A stretch of 62,000 nt of DNA from assembly GCF_004010195.1 (NCBI RefSeq), contig NC_057751.1, positions 8,809,611 through 8,871,610 on the forward strand, given 5' to 3'. A program made the translations under genes and the position numbers. Shown one piece after another: positions 5,529-39,525 of the stretch. Under the pieces are notes generated by a model. That model was not told the origin of the DNA and ran no database searches. It was given only the letters and a program-made list of their open reading frames with translations. Origin of the DNA: Chiloscyllium plagiosum (Eukaryota). Position 1 is the first letter of the stretch. Each line of letters starts with the position of its first letter.

Positions 5529-5694
5529 CATTTGTCGAGAGCAGGAACTGTGCAGCATTTTGTTGGGGTAACCATCTTATTTTATTGATCTTTTCCTCAA
5601 TTTCTAAACTTTTCAAATAGTCAAACTCAGGCTCATGGCTCTGAAAAGTACTGTAAACATTATATTCACCTCTGCAATGAGGCTGACTTTTGTT
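5529..5694 (-). CDS. PPP2R2A: PP2A B55-alpha regulatory subunit, next internal coding exon (166 nt), [55 protein letters not shown]
   Basis: Contains the B55 signature [23 protein letters not shown]. Acceptor ttgcag|AAC (phase 0, compatible with the preceding exon) and donor AAT G|gtaagtt (phase 1). Confidence 0.95.
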
Positions 5695-8719: not shown

Positions 8720-9805
8720 TTGTTCCAAACATACCAAAATAAGCAAGGCAAATCGGCGTTTACTGTGGAGAAGGACATGGAAGATATAGAATGTGGGGAA
8801 ATAGACGGTGACATCTTGAAAAATGTCCATGTTACAGTGGTAGTCATGCTGGATGTCTTCAAATGCATTAAGGCAGATAAATCCGCATTGTCTGCATGTG
8901 AACATAGATTAATCTAAGTTTGCAGATGACACCAAAATTGGACATGTAGTGGACAGCAAAGATGACTGCCTCAGAATACAACAGGATCTTGATCAGATGG
9001 ACCAACGGGCCGAGGCATGGCAGATGGAGTTTGCTTTAGATAAATTTGAAGAGCTGCATTTTGGAAAGGCAAATCAGGGATTGCCTAAAACATCTCATGA
9101 TAAGGGCATGGGGAGTGTTGCTGAACAAAGTGACCTTGGCGTGCAGGTACCTTGTTGCTTAAACGTGGAGTCACAGGTAGATAGGTTAGTGAAGGCGGCG
9201 TTTAGTATGCTTTCCTTTATTAATCAGAACATCGAGTATAGGAGTTGGGATGTCATGTTGCAGCTGTACAGGATATTAGTTAGGCCACTTTTGGAATAGC
9301 GTGTGCAATTGTGGTCTCCCTCTACCAAAAGGATGTTGTGAAACTTGGAAGAGTTCAGAAAAAGATTTACATGGATGTTGCCAGGGTTGGAAGATTTGAA
9401 CTACAGGGAGAGGCTGAATAGGCTGGGCCATTTTCCCTGGAGTCGGAAGCTGAAAGTTGACCTTATAGAGGTTTATAAAATCATGACGAGCATAGATAGG
9501 GGAAATAGGCAAGGTCTTTTCCCTGGGGGGCGAGTCCAGAACTAGAGGTTCTGGTTTAGGCTGAGAGGCGCAAGATTTAAAAGGGACCTGAGGAGCAACC
9601 TTTTCACAGAGAGTGCGGCATGCATGCCATGAGTTGGCACAATTACAACGTTTAAAAAACTTCTGGACGGGTATATGAATAGAAAGGTTTTAGAGGATAT
9701 GCATCAAGCACTGGCAAATGGGACTGGATTAATTTAGGATACCTGGTCGGCATGGACAAGTTGGACTGGAGGGTCTGTTTCCGTGCTGTATATCTCTAGG
9801 ACTCC
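8720..9805 (+). mobile_element. CR1 LINE, 5'-truncated and internally deleted
   Basis: KFADDTK, LRIQQDLDQM..W..WQMEF, QLYRILVRPLLE, LIEVYKIM motifs and the CR1 3' UTR. Confidence 0.92.
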
Positions 9806-9947: not shown

Positions 9948-10045
9948 CTCTTGCTCCTGCTGGAATATGACGACTCTACCTCCCTTGTCCCCAGTTGCGA
10001 GTAATTCTCCAGAGTGGTTGAATTCTACCGTGGAAATAATATCAG
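9948..10045 (-). CDS. PPP2R2A: PP2A B55-alpha regulatory subunit, internal coding exon (98 nt), (A)[32 protein letters not shown]
   Basis: Translation matches the B55 N-terminal WD40 region. Acceptor ttcacag|CT (AG at 10047-10046, phase 1) and donor GAG|gtgagta (GT at 9947-9946, phase 0). Residues NHSGEL and QQEQE favour the alpha paralogue over beta (NHTGEL/QREQE) or delta (NYSGDL/QREQE), comparing with sequences recalled from memory. Confidence 0.95.
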
Positions 10046-15679: not shown

Positions 15680-16730
15680 CATTTTCTAACGTCTTTTGGT
15701 TAAGTGCCCAACAATGGGTGCATTGGTTATTAAGTTTGAAGCATAAAGGATAGAAAGTAATATACTGGATGAAATCATAATTGGCTCACTGTCAAAAAAC
15801 ACCAACTAAGAATCAATGGATCCTTTGGCAGGCTGTGACGAACAGCGGTACTGCAAAGGTCAGTTGTGGAGCCTAAGGTGCTCACAATGTAGACCACTAA
15901 TTTTCAATCAGGGATCCAATGTTACATTTCCAAATTTGCAGATGATACAAAACTAAGTGGGAACTCTTTCTCCCATATGGGATTTTGTCCAAGGCCTTGC
16001 TGAAATGGCAAGTACACCTTATTACCTGTGCTACCGTGATCTACACACCTGGTGACCCTCTCTGACAAAGGCATGAACTCTCTGATAAAGCCATCCTGAC
16101 TATTCATGATCAGACCTCACCTCTTCAAAAGGATATTAATTCTCCCCTTCAGAATTTTCTCCAAATAGTTTCCCACCACTGACGTCAAAGTCATTGGTCT
16201 GTAATTCCCAAGTTTATCTCTAACACACTTTTTCTAAAGTGCAACCTCATGACTTGTCCTGCAATCCCCTGGCAGCTGCACTGTTACCAGTGAGGAATCC
16301 TTATCTTGGCAAAGATTCTGATCTTTTCAGGGAAGTAAAATGAAGCTTCACTAGAACATTTCAGATCATGGTGGGACTGTCTTACCAAGAGACTAAGCAA
16401 ACTGGACCTGTATTCTCCAGAGTTTCCAAATGGTTGCATTGAAACTGAAAACATTTCAAGGGATAGCCTGGGTAGAGGTGGGTGGGTTGTTTCTGTGTGG
16501 GATCAGCACAGAATCAAGGAATCCAAGTTGATATCTAAAATGAGGAGACATGTTTTTGCTCAGAGGGTTGTGAACCTCAGGAATTTCTGACCACAGAGGC
16601 CTGTGGAAGATCAATCTGAGTAAGTTTGAGCAACAGTTTGACAGATTTCAGATGACTAGTGTCTTTCAGGATTATGGCCATCAGATTGAATAAACATCAT
16701 TCACGTATTTCATCAGCCATGATATAACGA
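15680..16730. mobile_element. Mosaic of old CR1 fragments in both orientations
   Basis: ISKFADDTKL on + near 15925, an inverted fragment at ~15970-16290, and a decayed 3' end on + at ~16370-16730. Confidence 0.6.
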
Positions 16731-17901
16731 ATTTCAGGTTCTTTGGCACAGTCCTGTTTCCAAGCTTAAGATCTAGTATCTTCCAACTCAGAGTTTATCA
16801 ATGGGTAACTGACACCAAGAGTTTGGCTCAATTTTGGCCACTCCTCTCAGATTTGTTGATATGCACAAACACAGATGCTACAAGTTCACATACGAGTCAC
16901 CATCATTAAAAACTGTACCACTGTCAGGTACAAGTCCGTAGCTCATTGGCAAGTAACATTCTACCATCATTCGTTGGCATTGCTTGCACAATGACGAATC
17001 ATCATGGAAATGATTTCAGGAAATCCCTGTAGTGTGAAAGCAGCACATTGCCTAGTTTATGTCTATCAGCCTTCCTCAAAAGTGTGACCCTCAATCCCCT
17101 CGCACCTCCCTGTGGTCAGCAAGGAATCCTTACCCTGGTCAAGAGGATGTGCAACTAAGTTTCACCAGAGCAATTCACTATGAGGATGCAGGACTTCTCC
17201 GACATCTATTAGCAGAACTCAGGAATGTTTCGGTTGCAATACTAATTGCTTACCACATGCAAAACAAAGCCTGCCGGCAACGCCATTTTTAAGTATTACA
17301 AATACCAACACATGAAATGCAAACAATGATATTGAAGCAGTTGTGCTTCACTACTGTGCACCATTTACTTAACCTGAAACCACATCCTCTTGTTAAGCCA
17401 TTCTAAGAACACTTAGCCTACATTTCAACTTGGGAAGAAAATCTTGAATTATACCTCTGGGGTCCTTTCCACAGTTTTAATTGCACACAGTACTCAATTA
17501 TAATATGTATGCAGCCTTGAGCTCAACTGAAAACATGGCTAAACAACATTGAATTGACAAGTGCTAAGAACACAGGCCATTTCATTCTCACCTATTTTAA
17601 AGCTTGCTGAGTGTAGAGAACTGAACTGACATTTCAAGTCTCAGAACTCTACGTTCAAGCAGACCAGCCTTTCCTGAAAAGCAACAACTTAGTACAACTA
17701 TTGAAACAACTGGTTGATCATGTAATATAGCCAGACCCTTCATAACAAGCTCCAGTAACAATGAGCTGTCCAGCACCAATCTTTCAGCAAAACACATTCA
17801 ACTGAAATCTGCTCAAAACCACAGACACATCATCAATACAATATATTAAAAGAATCCCCATGTGTTTAATCAGTGACTCACCAAAAACCAACATCCCATA
17901 C

Positions 17902-17989
17902 CTTGGTCATAGGATGCAGTTGACATCAACTGCAGGCCAGAGGAAGACGACTTAATTGACTGGGAGAAATTGCAGAGAAAGCATTTCAT
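17902..17989 (-). CDS. PPP2R2A: Candidate alternative first coding exon of the B55 gene (MKCFLCNFSQSIKSSSSGLQLMSTASYDQ+G), B-beta2-like
   Basis: ATG at 17989-17987 with A at -3, 29 open codons plus 1 nt, then CAAG|gtatgg donor in phase 1, which rebuilds G|CT=Ala with the 10045 exon. Starts with MKCF like the PPP2R2B B-beta2 exon. Lies in apparently repeat-free sequence. Confidence 0.6.
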
Positions 17990-18600
17990 TGTCCGCAGTA
18001 CGCAAGTATGTTTGTGGATTGTGATTTGTTTACACAACACCCCAAAACAAAAAGGATATCCAAGGCCATTCAATTCTTTTACACAGTTTCAATTAGCAGC
18101 CAGACTCAGTCCCTTGACCTGCAAAGGCAGAATGCATGAAGCATATGAACCAACAAAATAGCAGCCGTCTCCCTTTTTTCTTTTCTTGCCAAGCATGCTG
18201 TGTTTTTACAGTAATCCCTCAGCTGGAGGAGTGTCAAAAAGAAAGAAAAAAAAACAGCCAACCATGCTGTCAAGCATTTTTTCTTCACAACGCAGAATTC
18301 AGCTGTCTGCTTCTGCAACACCAGTCTTCAAACATAGAGCTGTTCAAATTCAACAATCAGCTTTCTTCGGATAATATGACAAACCAAATTCAAGAGAAAA
18401 CTCCTTTCTCGCAAAAAATTTATGGTTTTCTTTACACCATTTCACAAGTGTGAACCTTTGACAGACCTGATCAGTGGAAACAGGCATGAAGGCTGTGCTT
18501 TGCAAGGTTAACATGACGTCAGCTCTATTCCCAGACCTCAGTGACTCCCTGCATAGGCGTAATACTCCCATCTGCACCACTGTCAAAACTTGCTCATACC
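17990..18600 (-). promoter_or_regulatory. Putative 5'UTR/internal promoter for the candidate alternative first exon, with a perfect CRE (TGACGTCA) at 18514-18521
   Basis: No recognisable repeats in the block directly upstream of the candidate exon. Palindromic CRE seen directly; an AP-1 motif TGACTCA lies at 17874-17880. Function is inferred only. Confidence 0.3.
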
Positions 18601-33662: not shown

Positions 33663-34021
33663 GATCATAGGAACGAGGAGCAGGAGTAGGCCATCTGGCC
33701 CTTCGACCTTGCAGCGCCATTCACTCAGAACATAACTGATCTTTGCGTGGCCTCAGCTCCACTGAGCCGCCCTCACCACCACCTTTAATTCCTTCACTGT
33801 TCAAAACATTCTTAGTTTTAATAATATTTACTGAGAAAGCCTCAACTACCTCACTGGGCAGGGAATTCCATAAATTCACCACTCTCTGGGTGAAGAAGTC
33901 CCTTGCCAATTCATTCCTAAATTTACTCTCGCTAATTTTGAGGTTATGCCCGCTTATCTTAGTTTGACGTGCCAGTGGAAACATCGTCTCTACGTCTATC
34001 TTATCTGTTCCCTTCATCATT
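33663..34021 (-). mobile_element. CR1 LINE 3' end, apparently inserted in an older decayed LINE (~33290-34350)
   Basis: GHNLKI...FFTQRVVNLWNSLPSEVVEA. Closely similar to 52665-53030. Confidence 0.85.
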
Positions 34022-34353
34022 ATGTCGCTGGCAGAGTATTCCAGAGACAGTCTATCCTCGCATGCTGCTGGTTCAAGATGCAGCAATAATAATCCTGCAA
34101 ATGATGAAGGTGGATGGTTACATTTTCTTTGTTGGAGATTGACATTGCCTTGTACTGTGTGGTCTGTGTTCCATTTGTCACTTAGCAAACCAAAGCTGAA
34201 GCATCTCCAGCTCTTGCTGTCCAAAGACAGAGACAGCTTCAGTATCTAATCAGTCACAACTGGGATTGAGCAATGTTCACTTGTGGTTTGTTATCACATT
34301 CTTGACCTTCCGTTGGAAAGGCAATAATGGAAGCAAACAAAGTTGGTTAGCCC

Positions 34354-38349: not shown

Positions 38350-39525
38350 TCGCAAAAAAATGAGGGTCAGGACGAAGAACACTTCGAAAAATGGGGATTA
38401 ATCATAGATAGTCAGCAAGGATTGGTTAGAGGGTGATCCGATCTATTGTACTTGACTTTTTTTTAAAATGTGACTAAATGCATTGATGAGGGTTGTGCAG
38501 TATTCAGTGGTTTACATGAACCTCTGCAAGGCCTCTTATGAGGTCCCACATGGATGAGTGCTCCAAAAGATCAGAGCCCATGGGGTCCAAGCCAAGTTGG
38601 CAAACTGGATCCAGTATAGGCATGCAAAGTGGAAGCACAAACAGGATGGTGGAGTGATGCTTTTGTGATCGGAACCCTGTGACCAGCAGCACGCTACAAG
38701 GATTGATGCTGATACTCGCTGTTTGTCATGTAAATGAGCAACATGGATGTGAATGCACTAAGCGTAATTAATAACTTTGCGTATGACATTAAAATTGGTG
38801 GTGTTTTTGATGATGATGAGCATAAGCTGCACTTGATATTGATACTGATCAGCTGGCAACCTGGGAAGAACAATGGCAGATACAATTCAATCCACTAGGT
38901 ATGACGTGATGCATTTTGGGAGGTCTGATAAGAGAAGCATAGACACAATGAACGTTAAGTCCCAAAGCAGTACTGAGGAACAGAGAGGCCTTGATTTACA
39001 AATCCAGAGACCCCAGGACACAGAATATATCGTTGAAGTCTTGCTACCACTTGCTAATGCAACATTATGTGCAGTTCTGTTGCAACACTACTTCAAGAGG
39101 GTGCAGAGGAGATTCACCACAATTTTGCCTGGGACAGAAAGTGAGAGTTCAGGAGAGATTGGACAATCTGGTTTGTTTTCACTGGAGCAAAAGGGGTGTC
39201 AGACTGAGGAATTCAAACTTATGAGAGGCATAGACAGAGCTGATCATGAATATCTTTGTCCCATGTCAGATATGTCTCAGAACAGAGGTCATACATTTAA
39301 AGTGAACATGAAGATATTTCAAGGAGATCCAAGACCATTTTATTTCACCTGGAAAGTGCATGAAATATGGAACATGCTGCCTGAGAAAGTGGAGGAGGCA
39401 GATACTCTCATAACATTTCAGAAACACCTCCAAGAGCACTTAAGATAAAAGGGCATAATCAGCTAGAGGCTATGTGCAGGCAAATTGGATTCATGTAGCT
39501 TGGTGTTTATCAGCATGGACATGAT
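38350..39525 (+). mobile_element. Old CR1 LINE
   Basis: LIIDSQQGLVRG, MHFGRS, KRVQRRFTTILPG, GLFSLEQ, IWNMLPEKVEEA. Confidence 0.85.

What the first reader, a model, noticed from the sequence alone, without database searches (positions are those of the whole stretch)
17902..17989. Hidden B-beta2-like alternative first exon in a B55-alpha (PPP2R2A) gene
Seen: about 7.9 kb upstream (minus strand) of the [10 protein letters not shown] exon is acaATG AAA TGC TTT ... GAC CAA G|gtatgg, 88 coding nt ending in phase 1, exactly the phase the 10045 acceptor needs. The spliced product would be [39 protein letters not shown]. Established: the paralogue PPP2R2B has a neuronal splice form, B-beta2, whose alternative first exon begins MKCFSRYLPY..., joins at the same [10 protein letters not shown] junction and targets PP2A to the outer mitochondrial membrane, promoting Drp1-dependent fission. 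This peptide has the same first four residues and similar length, is Ser-rich, and has no acidic residue until position 28. Inference: an alpha-paralogue equivalent, implying the targeting exon predates the vertebrate B55 duplications. I do not know of such an isoform for mammalian PPP2R2A. Similarity beyond MKCF is weak and the peptide has no Arg.
Basis: partly seen in the sequence, partly recalled or inferred. Interest (0 to 1): 0.85.

Follow-up and report, generated by a model that had tools for sequence, protein, structure and literature searches.

The report
Conserved alternative MKCF start exon of B55-alpha
Inside the first intron of a PP2A B55-alpha gene lies a short alternative start exon that is also kept in the sister gene B55-delta and in bird B55-alpha, so it is almost certainly real and ancient, but what it does has not been studied.

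Summary
On the minus strand, ATG 17989 opens 29 codons plus one base, ending at G|GTATGG after 17902. That is phase 1, as the acceptor at 10045 ([10 protein letters not shown] exon) needs.

An ORF with a phase-1 donor is not rare: 28 such candidates lie in the 52 kb upstream of exon 2. Conservation is what makes this one real:
- A genome-wide search with the 29-aa peptide finds only itself and one other place, about 6.2 kb upstream of exon 2 of the B55-delta gene (69% identity, same phase and donor).
- Alpha versus delta exon: dN/dS 0.22; identity 66/91 against about 40% in the flanks.
- Bird B55-alpha proteins, including a sequence under three RefSeq XP accessions, start MKCFPCQFSN...FDQ-ADIIS.

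A tree places the window's gene in the alpha clade (99/98). The same genome has a true B-beta2 exon (MKCFSRYLPY) in its beta gene. The exon order WCFSQVKG-type, then MKCF-type, then exon 2 is the same in alpha, delta and beta.

No RNA evidence could be obtained for this species, and the function (mitochondrial or other membrane targeting) is inferred only. The exon appears in bird gene models; my text searches found no paper that prints it.

The parts
17902..17989 (-). Alternative first coding exon of PPP2R2A (B55-alpha), 88 nt: ATG plus 29 codons plus 1 base (phase 1). Peptide MKCFLCNFSQSIKSSSSGLQLMSTASYDQ.
   Evidence: Sequence. Paralogous exon in the delta gene at 69% identity, E 9.4e-4 genome-wide, one of only 2 hits. 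dN/dS 0.22 and 66/91 identity against about 40% in the flanks. Bird alpha proteins carry the same tail.
17896..17901 (-). 5' splice donor GTATGG following CAA G.
   Evidence: AAG|GTATG is kept in the delta copy (alignment). It matches 7 of 9 consensus positions.
17990..18010 (-). Short stretch directly before the ATG (ttgcgtactgcggaca) that resembles the delta copy, with A at -3. Presumed 5' UTR.
   Evidence: The alignment shows tgcRtactgcRga before the ATG in both genes, but identity over the 30 nt upstream is only 13/30. The transcription start is not known.
9948..10045 (-). Constant exon 2 ([33 protein letters not shown]) with the phase-1 acceptor cacag|CT.
5529..5694 (-). Constant exon 3 ([14 protein letters not shown]...LLSTN plus 1 base).

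Best explanation
Bases 17902-17989 (minus strand) are a real, ancient alternative first coding exon of the B55-alpha gene (PPP2R2A). It lies in intron 1, about 44 kb downstream of the canonical WCFSQVKG start exon and 7.9 kb upstream of exon 2.

Shown here: it has an intact ATG, an open frame, a phase-1 donor and coding-type conservation. It has a paralogous copy at the equivalent place in B55-delta and orthologous copies in bird B55-alpha. It sits in the same position and phase as the B-beta2 exon of B55-beta.

Inferred: it is transcribed from its own promoter in intron 1 and spliced to exon 2. That would give a B55-alpha whose first 27 residues (the canonical N-terminal strand) are replaced by a 29-30-residue Ser/Thr-rich tail. 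The tail has invariant M1 K2 C3 F4 C6 F8 S9 K13.

Inferred further: the tail changes where the PP2A holoenzyme sits in the cell. The most likely mode is membrane attachment, either at the outer mitochondrial membrane as for B-beta2 or through fatty acylation of Cys3 and Cys6. Losing the canonical strand may itself also alter targeting.

My confidence is about 0.85 that it is a functional coding first exon, and about 0.3 that it specifically targets mitochondria.
For: Conservation within the genome:
- The 29-aa peptide searched against all 3.56 Gb gives 2 hits: itself and C22:21949902-21949991 (69% identity, E 9.4e-4). The reciprocal search also gives only these two.
- The C22 copy is MKCFPCNFSQVFKTSTSGTNSLMSTSSFDQ plus G|gtatga, 91 nt, phase 1, about 6.2 kb upstream of delta exon 2.
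- Similarity is confined to the exon. It is 66/91 in the exon, 13/30 just upstream, 123/319 further upstream and 20/49 downstream. pS is 0.53 against pN 0.18, giving dN/dS 0.22.

Orthologues:
- Of the 120 listed hits, 2 alpha proteins (P0074, P0100) start MKCFPCQFSN.... P0121 was added.
- P0126 (450 aa, three RefSeq XP accessions) and P0132 were found among the 15 listed members of a 999-member alpha cluster.
- The genomic ORFs P0122 and P0123 show the exon followed by GMG/GVG, that is, a GT donor.
- Twelve columns are invariant in 7 sequences.

Gene identity: C42 falls in the alpha clade at 99/98 and C22 in delta at 99/98.

Family context:
- A B-beta2 exon is present in the beta gene of the same genome: MKCFSRYLPYIFRPPSTIFSSSCYTE plus G|gtacag.
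- A WCFSQVKG-type exon lies upstream in all four paralogues.

Literature:
- The B-beta2 tail binds the TOM complex and is regulated at Ser20-22 (PMC11780858, passages).
- The canonical Ppp2r2a N-terminus completes a propeller blade, and deleting it relocates the protein (PMC12675759, passages).
Against: There is no RNA evidence for this species, so transcription, the 17902->10045 junction and the start site are unproven.

The tail has only 2 basic residues (K2, K13; net +1), against 3 (net +2) in B-beta2. Its amphipathic moment at residues 4-14 is 0.46-0.52, reached by 5-23% of shuffles, against 0.75-0.77 (0-1% of shuffles) for B-beta2.

Beyond MKCF, the similarity to B-beta2 is weak. The beta-2 peptide does not find the alpha or delta exons in the genome search.

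No copy was detected at the gamma locus.

One unnamed genomic ORF (P0167) has the exon with the start Met and both Cys replaced, so some lineage appears to have lost it. No mammalian protein with this tail was seen.

A polypyrimidine-AG (ctgcctttgcag) about 130 nt upstream of the ATG could be an acceptor. In that case the exon need not be the first exon of its transcript.
Confidence: 0.8

Rival explanations
1. The exon is real, but the tail works as a lipid anchor. Cys3 and Cys6, next to Lys2 and Phe4/Phe8, would be S-acylated and tether PP2A/B55-alpha or -delta to a membrane other than the mitochondrial outer membrane, without TOM binding.
For: C3 and C6 are invariant in all 7 aligned alpha/delta-type tails. 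Both are replaced, together with the start Met, in the decayed copy P0167. Position 6, an Arg in B-beta2, is Cys here. The tail is less basic and less amphipathic than B-beta2. That N-terminal Cys pairs beside basic and hydrophobic residues are typical S-acylation sites is recalled knowledge, not a call.
Against: No palmitoylation predictor or experiment was available. B-beta2 shares C3 and is not known to me as acylated. The conserved K2, hydrophobic residue at 12 and basic residue at 13 line up with B-beta2 without gaps.
Confidence: 0.3
2. The exon is real, but its main effect is by omission. It removes the canonical N-terminal strand that closes a propeller blade, producing a 'notched' B55-alpha/delta that behaves like B55-beta/gamma (for example, axon-initial-segment enrichment). 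The tail itself would be a passive linker.
For: PMC12675759 (passages): the Ppp2r2a N-terminus interlocks with the C-terminus, and a deltaN26 truncation gives new AIS enrichment. The MKCF exon replaces exactly that segment.
Against: A passive linker would not keep 12 invariant positions from this genome's alpha and delta genes to birds, nor a dN/dS of 0.22.
Confidence: 0.2
3. The block is a conserved non-coding element (an enhancer, or a non-coding or 'poison' exon) whose open frame is incidental.
For: No RNA or protein evidence in this species. A possible acceptor lies upstream of the ATG. Splicing canonical exon 1 into that acceptor would hit a stop before the ATG (my reading).
Against: The ATG, frame, length (29-30 codons), phase and GT donor are all kept in alpha, delta and birds. 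Synonymous change exceeds non-synonymous change. Similarity stops at the donor. Bird gene models translate it.
Confidence: 0.07
4. It is a chance ORF in intron 1 that happens to start MKCF.
For: 28 comparable ORF-plus-donor candidates lie in the same 52 kb. A related MKCF-type start pattern occurs 2,349 times in the genome.
Against: It is the reciprocal best and only hit to the equivalent intron of the delta gene. Bird orthologues exist. dN/dS is 0.22.
Confidence: 0.02

Closest known systems
B-beta2 alternative first exon of PPP2R2B (MKCFSRYLPYIFRPPNTILSSSCH; Dagda et al. 2003 and 2005, cited in PMC11780858 and PMC12675759; peptide printed in PMC2810296)
   Same: Both are first coding exons that start MKCF, are 26-30 codons long, end in phase 1 with G|GT and join the [10 protein letters not shown] exon. 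Both lie downstream of a WCFSQVKG-type exon. An ungapped comparison also gives a hydrophobic residue at 8 and 12, a basic residue at 13 and then a Ser/Thr-rich stretch.
   Different: It is in different genes (alpha and delta). Cys replaces Arg at position 6. Net charge is +1 rather than +2, and the amphipathic moment is weaker. There is no Pro-Pro. It lies 6-8 kb from exon 2 rather than 383 kb. Localisation is untested.
Predicted bird B55-alpha isoform P0126 (RefSeq XP_009915624.2, XP_029891098.1, XP_032845871.1), plus P0074, P0100, P0121 and P0132
   Same: Orthologous tail MKCFPCQFSNTIKSAQFNTSALMSVSFFDQ joined to [10 protein letters not shown]. It is 48% identical to the window peptide, with 12 invariant positions. 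The protein bodies fall in the alpha clade.
   Different: These are automatic gene models with no published study that I could find. Pro replaces Leu at position 5, and the tail is one residue longer.
Canonical B55-alpha/delta first exon (MAGAGGGNDIQWCFSQVKGAVDDDVAE)
   Same: Same gene, same phase-1 junction to exon 2. It is present just outside the window, at the window-equivalent of 62268-62339.
   Different: It is acidic (net -4) and forms a strand that completes a propeller blade (PMC12675759). The MKCF tail replaces it.

Membership tests
PPP2R2A (B55-alpha) orthologue | The protein body groups with named alpha proteins rather than beta, gamma or delta | tested here: met
   The exon-by-exon translation of C42 falls inside the alpha clade at 99/98. 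The other three loci fall with delta (99/98), beta (93/92) and the single gamma-named protein (100/98).
PPP2R2A (B55-alpha) orthologue | A canonical WCFSQVKG first exon lies upstream in the same gene | tested here: met
   C42:8871878-8871949 (-), 88% identity to residues 4-27 of the bird/mammal alpha N-terminus, 268 nt beyond the window end.
B-beta2-type alternative first exon (B55 N-terminal targeting exons) | First coding exon starting MKCF, about 25-30 codons, phase-1 donor joining the [10 protein letters not shown] exon | tested here: met
   for the window, for delta, for this genome's own B-beta2 exon. The join itself is seen only in bird protein models, not in RNA of this species.
B-beta2-type alternative first exon (B55 N-terminal targeting exons) | Sequence homology to B-beta2 beyond the first four residues | tested here: inconclusive
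   The beta-2 peptide does not retrieve the alpha or delta exons. Only pattern-level similarity is seen (hydrophobic at 8 and 12, basic at 13, Ser/Thr-rich tail).
B-beta2-type alternative first exon (B55 N-terminal targeting exons) | Basic, amphipathic, import-signal-like tail. That K2, R6 and R13 are needed is my recollection of Dagda et al. 2005, which could not be opened. | tested here: inconclusive
   Two of the three positions are basic (K2, K13); position 6 is Cys. Moment is 0.46-0.52 against 0.75-0.77, and net charge +1 against +2.
B-beta2-type alternative first exon (B55 N-terminal targeting exons) | Localises PP2A to the outer mitochondrial membrane through TOM and promotes fission | not testable with these tools
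   Needs cell biology. The property is known for B-beta2 only (PMC11780858 and PMC12675759, passages).
B-beta2-type alternative first exon (B55 N-terminal targeting exons) | Expressed as a spliced mRNA | not tested

The most novel reading that the evidence does not exclude
The single B55 gene of the vertebrate ancestor already carried a row of alternative first exons: a WCFSQVKG-type exon followed by an MKCF-type exon. The MKCF targeting tail, known only from neuronal B-beta2, is therefore older than the two genome duplications. It survives in B55-alpha and B55-delta of cartilaginous fishes and birds as an unstudied, membrane- or mitochondria-directed form of the supposedly single-isoform, ubiquitous PP2A-B55alpha/delta. 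Some lineages, perhaps mammals, have lost it. A bolder corollary is that MKCF exons are shortened duplicates of the canonical exon (KCFS[R] against WCFSQ).
Probability: 0.35. Interest if true: 0.7.

Novelty: new member of a known kind. Interest (0 to 1): 0.55.

Why it matters
The papers I read here treat B55-alpha and B55-delta through one canonical, diffusely cytosolic form (PMC12675759, PMC3335092, passages). N-terminal isoform targeting has been worked out only for B55-beta.

A conserved second N-terminus in alpha and delta has three consequences:
- It gives a concrete, testable candidate for compartment-specific PP2A-B55alpha/delta activity in non-mammalian vertebrates.
- It dates the MKCF-type exon to before the paralogues separated.
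- It offers natural sequence variants (Cys at position 6, fewer basic residues) for dissecting how the B-beta2 tail works.

It also warns that knock-outs or antibodies aimed at canonical exon 1 would miss this isoform.

Tried and rejected
RNA evidence:
- The look-up of sequencing runs on 17902-18050 listed no RNA holder. Six rows hold part of the stretch. One is from a second organism with 0.31 of the words. None was laid.

Structure:
- AlphaFold2 of bird isoform P0126 with a 40-row alignment gave mean pLDDT 43. That is too poor to say whether the tail is ordered.

Protein searches:
- The search limited to residues 1-40 of P0074 found only 3 of 6 candidates, all galliform birds.
- The profile search of 5.8 billion cluster representatives found 5 hits among 204 candidates.
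- The HMM scan of 1.84 billion representatives found 3. One is true (P0122), one is a decayed copy (P0167), and one is an ankyrin-repeat protein matching by chance through repeated ALMFACSFDQ (P0168).
- Isoforms that differ only at the N-terminus are hidden inside 90% and 50% clusters, so these low counts say little about taxonomic spread.

Gamma locus:
- No MKCF-type hit by peptide search.
- The short pattern search listed only contig C1 rows.

Literature:
- Searches for MKCFPC, MKCFLC and MKCFP found no paper.
- Searches on PPP2R2A or PPP2R2D isoforms found nothing describing this exon.
- Dagda 2005, Dagda 2008 and Merrill 2013 are not held, so the residue-level requirements of the B-beta2 tail are recalled, not read.

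Other:
- Pfam finds nothing in the tail.
- The Xenopus N-terminus MKFKLNCLTCSF... (P0051) belongs to a beta-like protein and was not pursued.

Full report
**What is in the sequence**

On the minus strand, one search shows acaATG AAA TGC TTT CTC TGC AAT TTC TCC CAG ... TAT GAC CAA G|gtatgg. The ATG is at 17989 and the last exon base is 17902. That makes 88 nt: 29 codons plus one base. One search shows the acceptor cacag|CT GAT ATT ATT at 10045. The split codon G|CT is Ala, so the product would read [39 protein letters not shown].... Exon 2 is 9948-10045 and exon 3 is 5529-5694.

**Is it more than chance?**

The ORF and the phase are not enough on their own.
- Of 1,191 ATGs on this strand upstream of exon 2, 28 open 20-60 codons that end in a phase-1 GT donor matching at least 7 of 9 consensus positions.
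- A related start pattern (ATG AAR TGY TTY with a Leu-type codon at position 8, which the window's own exon does not match) occurs 2,349 times in the genome.

The case therefore rests on conservation.

**The gene**

The window is C42:8809611-8871610 of a 3.56 Gb genome with four B55 loci. I located their exons with a bird B55 protein, pieced the exon hits together in a script and built a tree with 29 source-named proteins. The placements were:

| Locus | Clade | Support |
|---|---|---|
| C42 (the window) | alpha | 99/98 |
| C22 | delta | 99/98 |
| C14 | beta | 93/92 |
| C32 | with the only gamma-named protein | 100/98 |

One protein that its source labels 'beta' (P0095) also fell with C32. C42 branches outside the teleost-plus-tetrapod alpha proteins (91/79). 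The window gene is therefore PPP2R2A, not PPP2R2B.

**A paralogous copy in B55-delta**

Searching the whole genome with the 29-aa peptide returned two places. One is the exon itself. The other is C22:21949902-21949991 on the minus strand, at 69% identity over all 29 residues with E 9.4e-4. The reciprocal search with the delta peptide returned the same two places.

The delta sequence reads ATG AAA TGC TTT CCT TGC AAT TTC TCT CAG ... TTT GAT CAA G|gtatga. That is MKCFPCNFSQVFKTSTSGTNSLMSTSSFDQ, 91 nt, phase 1. It lies about 6.2 kb upstream of delta exon 2, compared with 7.9 kb in alpha.

An alignment of 450 nt around both copies shows similarity limited to the exon and a short motif just before the ATG. 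One search gives the numbers:

| Region | Identity |
|---|---|
| Exon | 66/91 |
| 30 nt upstream | 13/30 |
| Further upstream | 123/319 |
| Beyond the donor | 20/49 |

Synonymous differences outweigh non-synonymous ones: pS 0.53, pN 0.18, dN/dS 0.22. Each paralogue groups with its bony-vertebrate orthologues. The two copies have therefore been separate since before this lineage split from bony vertebrates, yet both keep the ATG, frame, length, phase and donor.

**Orthologues in birds**

- Of the 120 listed hits to exon 3, two alpha proteins start MKCFPCQFSNAVKSAQS.TSALMSVSVFEQ-ADIIS: P0074 (Callipepla) and P0100 (Colinus). Their bodies lie in the alpha clade.
- A search restricted to the tail added P0121 (Bambusicola).
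- Reading 40 of the 999 members of a tetrapod alpha cluster listed 15. Two of these carry the tail. P0126 is 450 aa and is held under three RefSeq XP accessions named 'B alpha isoform isoform ...'. P0132 is modelled from an upstream ATG as MKIHKQIRVLRK-MKCFPCPFSN....
- Two unnamed genomic ORFs, P0122 and P0123, show the exon running into GMG/GVG, which is the GT donor read through.

In the seven-sequence alignment, M1 K2 C3 F4 C6 F8 S9 K13 L22 M23 S24 Q30 are invariant.

One further unnamed ORF, P0167, has the same flanks, but LKSSPW stands in place of MKCFPC. This is apparently a decayed copy that lost the start and both cysteines together.

**Relation to B-beta2**

The beta gene of this genome has its own B-beta2 exon: MKCFSRYLPYIFRPPSTIFSSSCYTE plus G|gtacag, 79 nt, phase 1. 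It sits at C14:67936424, 383 kb upstream of beta exon 2.

All four paralogues have a WCFSQVKG-type exon further upstream:
- alpha at C42:8871878-8871949, only 268 nt beyond the window end
- delta at C22:21975254
- beta at C14:67834100
- gamma at C32:22400216

Beta and gamma also have the MEEDIDTRKINNSF-type exon, at C14:68162275 and C32:22529710. Alpha and delta do not.

The order WCFSQVKG-type, then MKCF-type, then exon 2 is therefore the same in alpha, delta and beta. Together with the shared MKCF, phase and length, this makes a common origin before the duplications the simplest reading.

Direct sequence support beyond MKCF is thin. The beta-2 peptide does not retrieve the alpha or delta exons. 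Only a hydrophobic residue at 8 and 12, a basic residue at 13 and a Ser/Thr-rich stretch line up. No MKCF exon was detected at the gamma locus, but that region was not examined directly.

**How it probably works**

Shown:
- It is an intact, selectively maintained coding first exon.
- It replaces the canonical 27-residue N-terminus.

Inferred:
- It has its own promoter in intron 1. The region is not GC-rich, and A is at -3 of the ATG in alpha, delta and beta-2.
- It is spliced to exon 2, as in the bird models.

For function there are three non-exclusive ideas.

1. *B-beta2-like docking at the outer mitochondrial membrane.* For B-beta2, the tail binds TOM and Ser20-22 phosphorylation releases it (PMC11780858, passages). 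The alpha/delta tail keeps K2 and a basic residue at 13, has no acidic residue before position 28 and is Ser/Thr-rich. It is, however, less basic (net +1 against +2). Its helical moment at residues 4-14 is 0.46-0.52, reached by 5-23% of shuffles. B-beta2 scores 0.75-0.77, reached by 0-1% of shuffles.
2. *S-acylation of the invariant Cys3 and Cys6.* This is an inference from recalled examples of N-terminal Cys pairs.
3. *Loss of the canonical strand.* According to PMC12675759 (passages), this strand interlocks with the C-terminus to complete a propeller blade, and its deletion relocates Ppp2r2a to the axon initial segment.

I rate a targeting role of some kind as likely, and mitochondrial targeting specifically at about 0.3.

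**What could not be done**

- No RNA holder was listed. Expression in this species is therefore open.
- The AlphaFold model of P0126 was too poor to use (mean pLDDT 43).
- No other eukaryotic genomes were available, so presence or absence in mammals, amphibians, teleosts and lamprey is unknown.
- Low hit counts in the clustered protein libraries are uninformative, because N-terminal isoforms are merged into their canonical clusters.

**Novelty**

- Text searches for MKCFPC, MKCFLC and MKCFP found no paper.
- Searches on PPP2R2A/PPP2R2D isoforms and alternative first exons found no description of this exon.
- PMC11780858 describes B-beta1 and B-beta2 as the isoforms of PPP2R2B conserved across vertebrates. 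It does not deal with alpha or delta.
- The exon is present in automatic bird gene models, so it is not unknown to databases.

I class it as a new member of a known kind (B55 N-terminal alternative first exons). It has a well-supported evolutionary point and an open functional question.

I did not test that claim. It prompted the speculation that MKCF exons (KCFSR in beta-2) may be shortened duplicates of the WCFSQ exon.

Noticed in passing
just beyond the window end (window-equivalent 62268-62339; C42:8871878-8871949, minus strand): The canonical WCFSQVKG first coding exon of this B55-alpha gene lies 268 nt outside the window, about 44 kb upstream of the MKCF exon.
   Followed up: partly
window about 18110-18125, minus strand: A polypyrimidine-AG (ttctgcctttgcag|gtcaagg) about 130 nt upstream of the ATG could be a 3' splice site. 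The MKCF exon might then be preceded by a non-coding exon. Read from canonical exon 1, it would meet a stop before the ATG.
   Followed up: no
G000 C14:67834100, 67936424, 68162275; exon 2 near 68319539: The beta gene of this genome carries three alternative first exons in a row (WCFSQVKG-type, B-beta2 MKCF-type, B-beta1 MEEDIDTRKINNSF-type) spread over 485 kb. Gamma (C32) has the first and third.
   Followed up: partly
protein P0167 (unnamed source): A genomic ORF with the same flanks as the MKCF exon, but LKSSPW in place of MKCFPC and EE in place of DQ at the end. It looks like a decayed copy of the exon in some lineage.
   Followed up: no
window 8913-9299 (+), 15893-16003 (+), 16339-16590 (+), 33721-34245 (-), 38849-39448 (+): Broken ORFs with motifs that I recall from LINE-type reverse transcriptases (FADDTK, RVVNLWNSLP). 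These are probably retroelement debris in the intron. The 38-48 kb stretch is also more GC-rich, 0.43-0.46 against about 0.39-0.40 in much of the window.
   Followed up: no
proteins P0095 and P0051: P0095, labelled 'beta isoform X1' by its source, groups with the gamma-like locus C32 and not with beta. The Xenopus beta-like P0051 has yet another N-terminus, MKFKLNCLTCSFVFSPLSI, with a C-x-x-C-x-F pattern like the alpha/delta tail.
   Followed up: no
window 17961-17984 compared with the canonical exon: The tail contains C-N-F-S-Q-S-I-K, which resembles canonical W-C-F-S-Q-V-K, and B-beta2 has K-C-F-S-R. This may hint that MKCF exons arose by duplication of the canonical first exon. The match is too short to test.
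   Followed up: no
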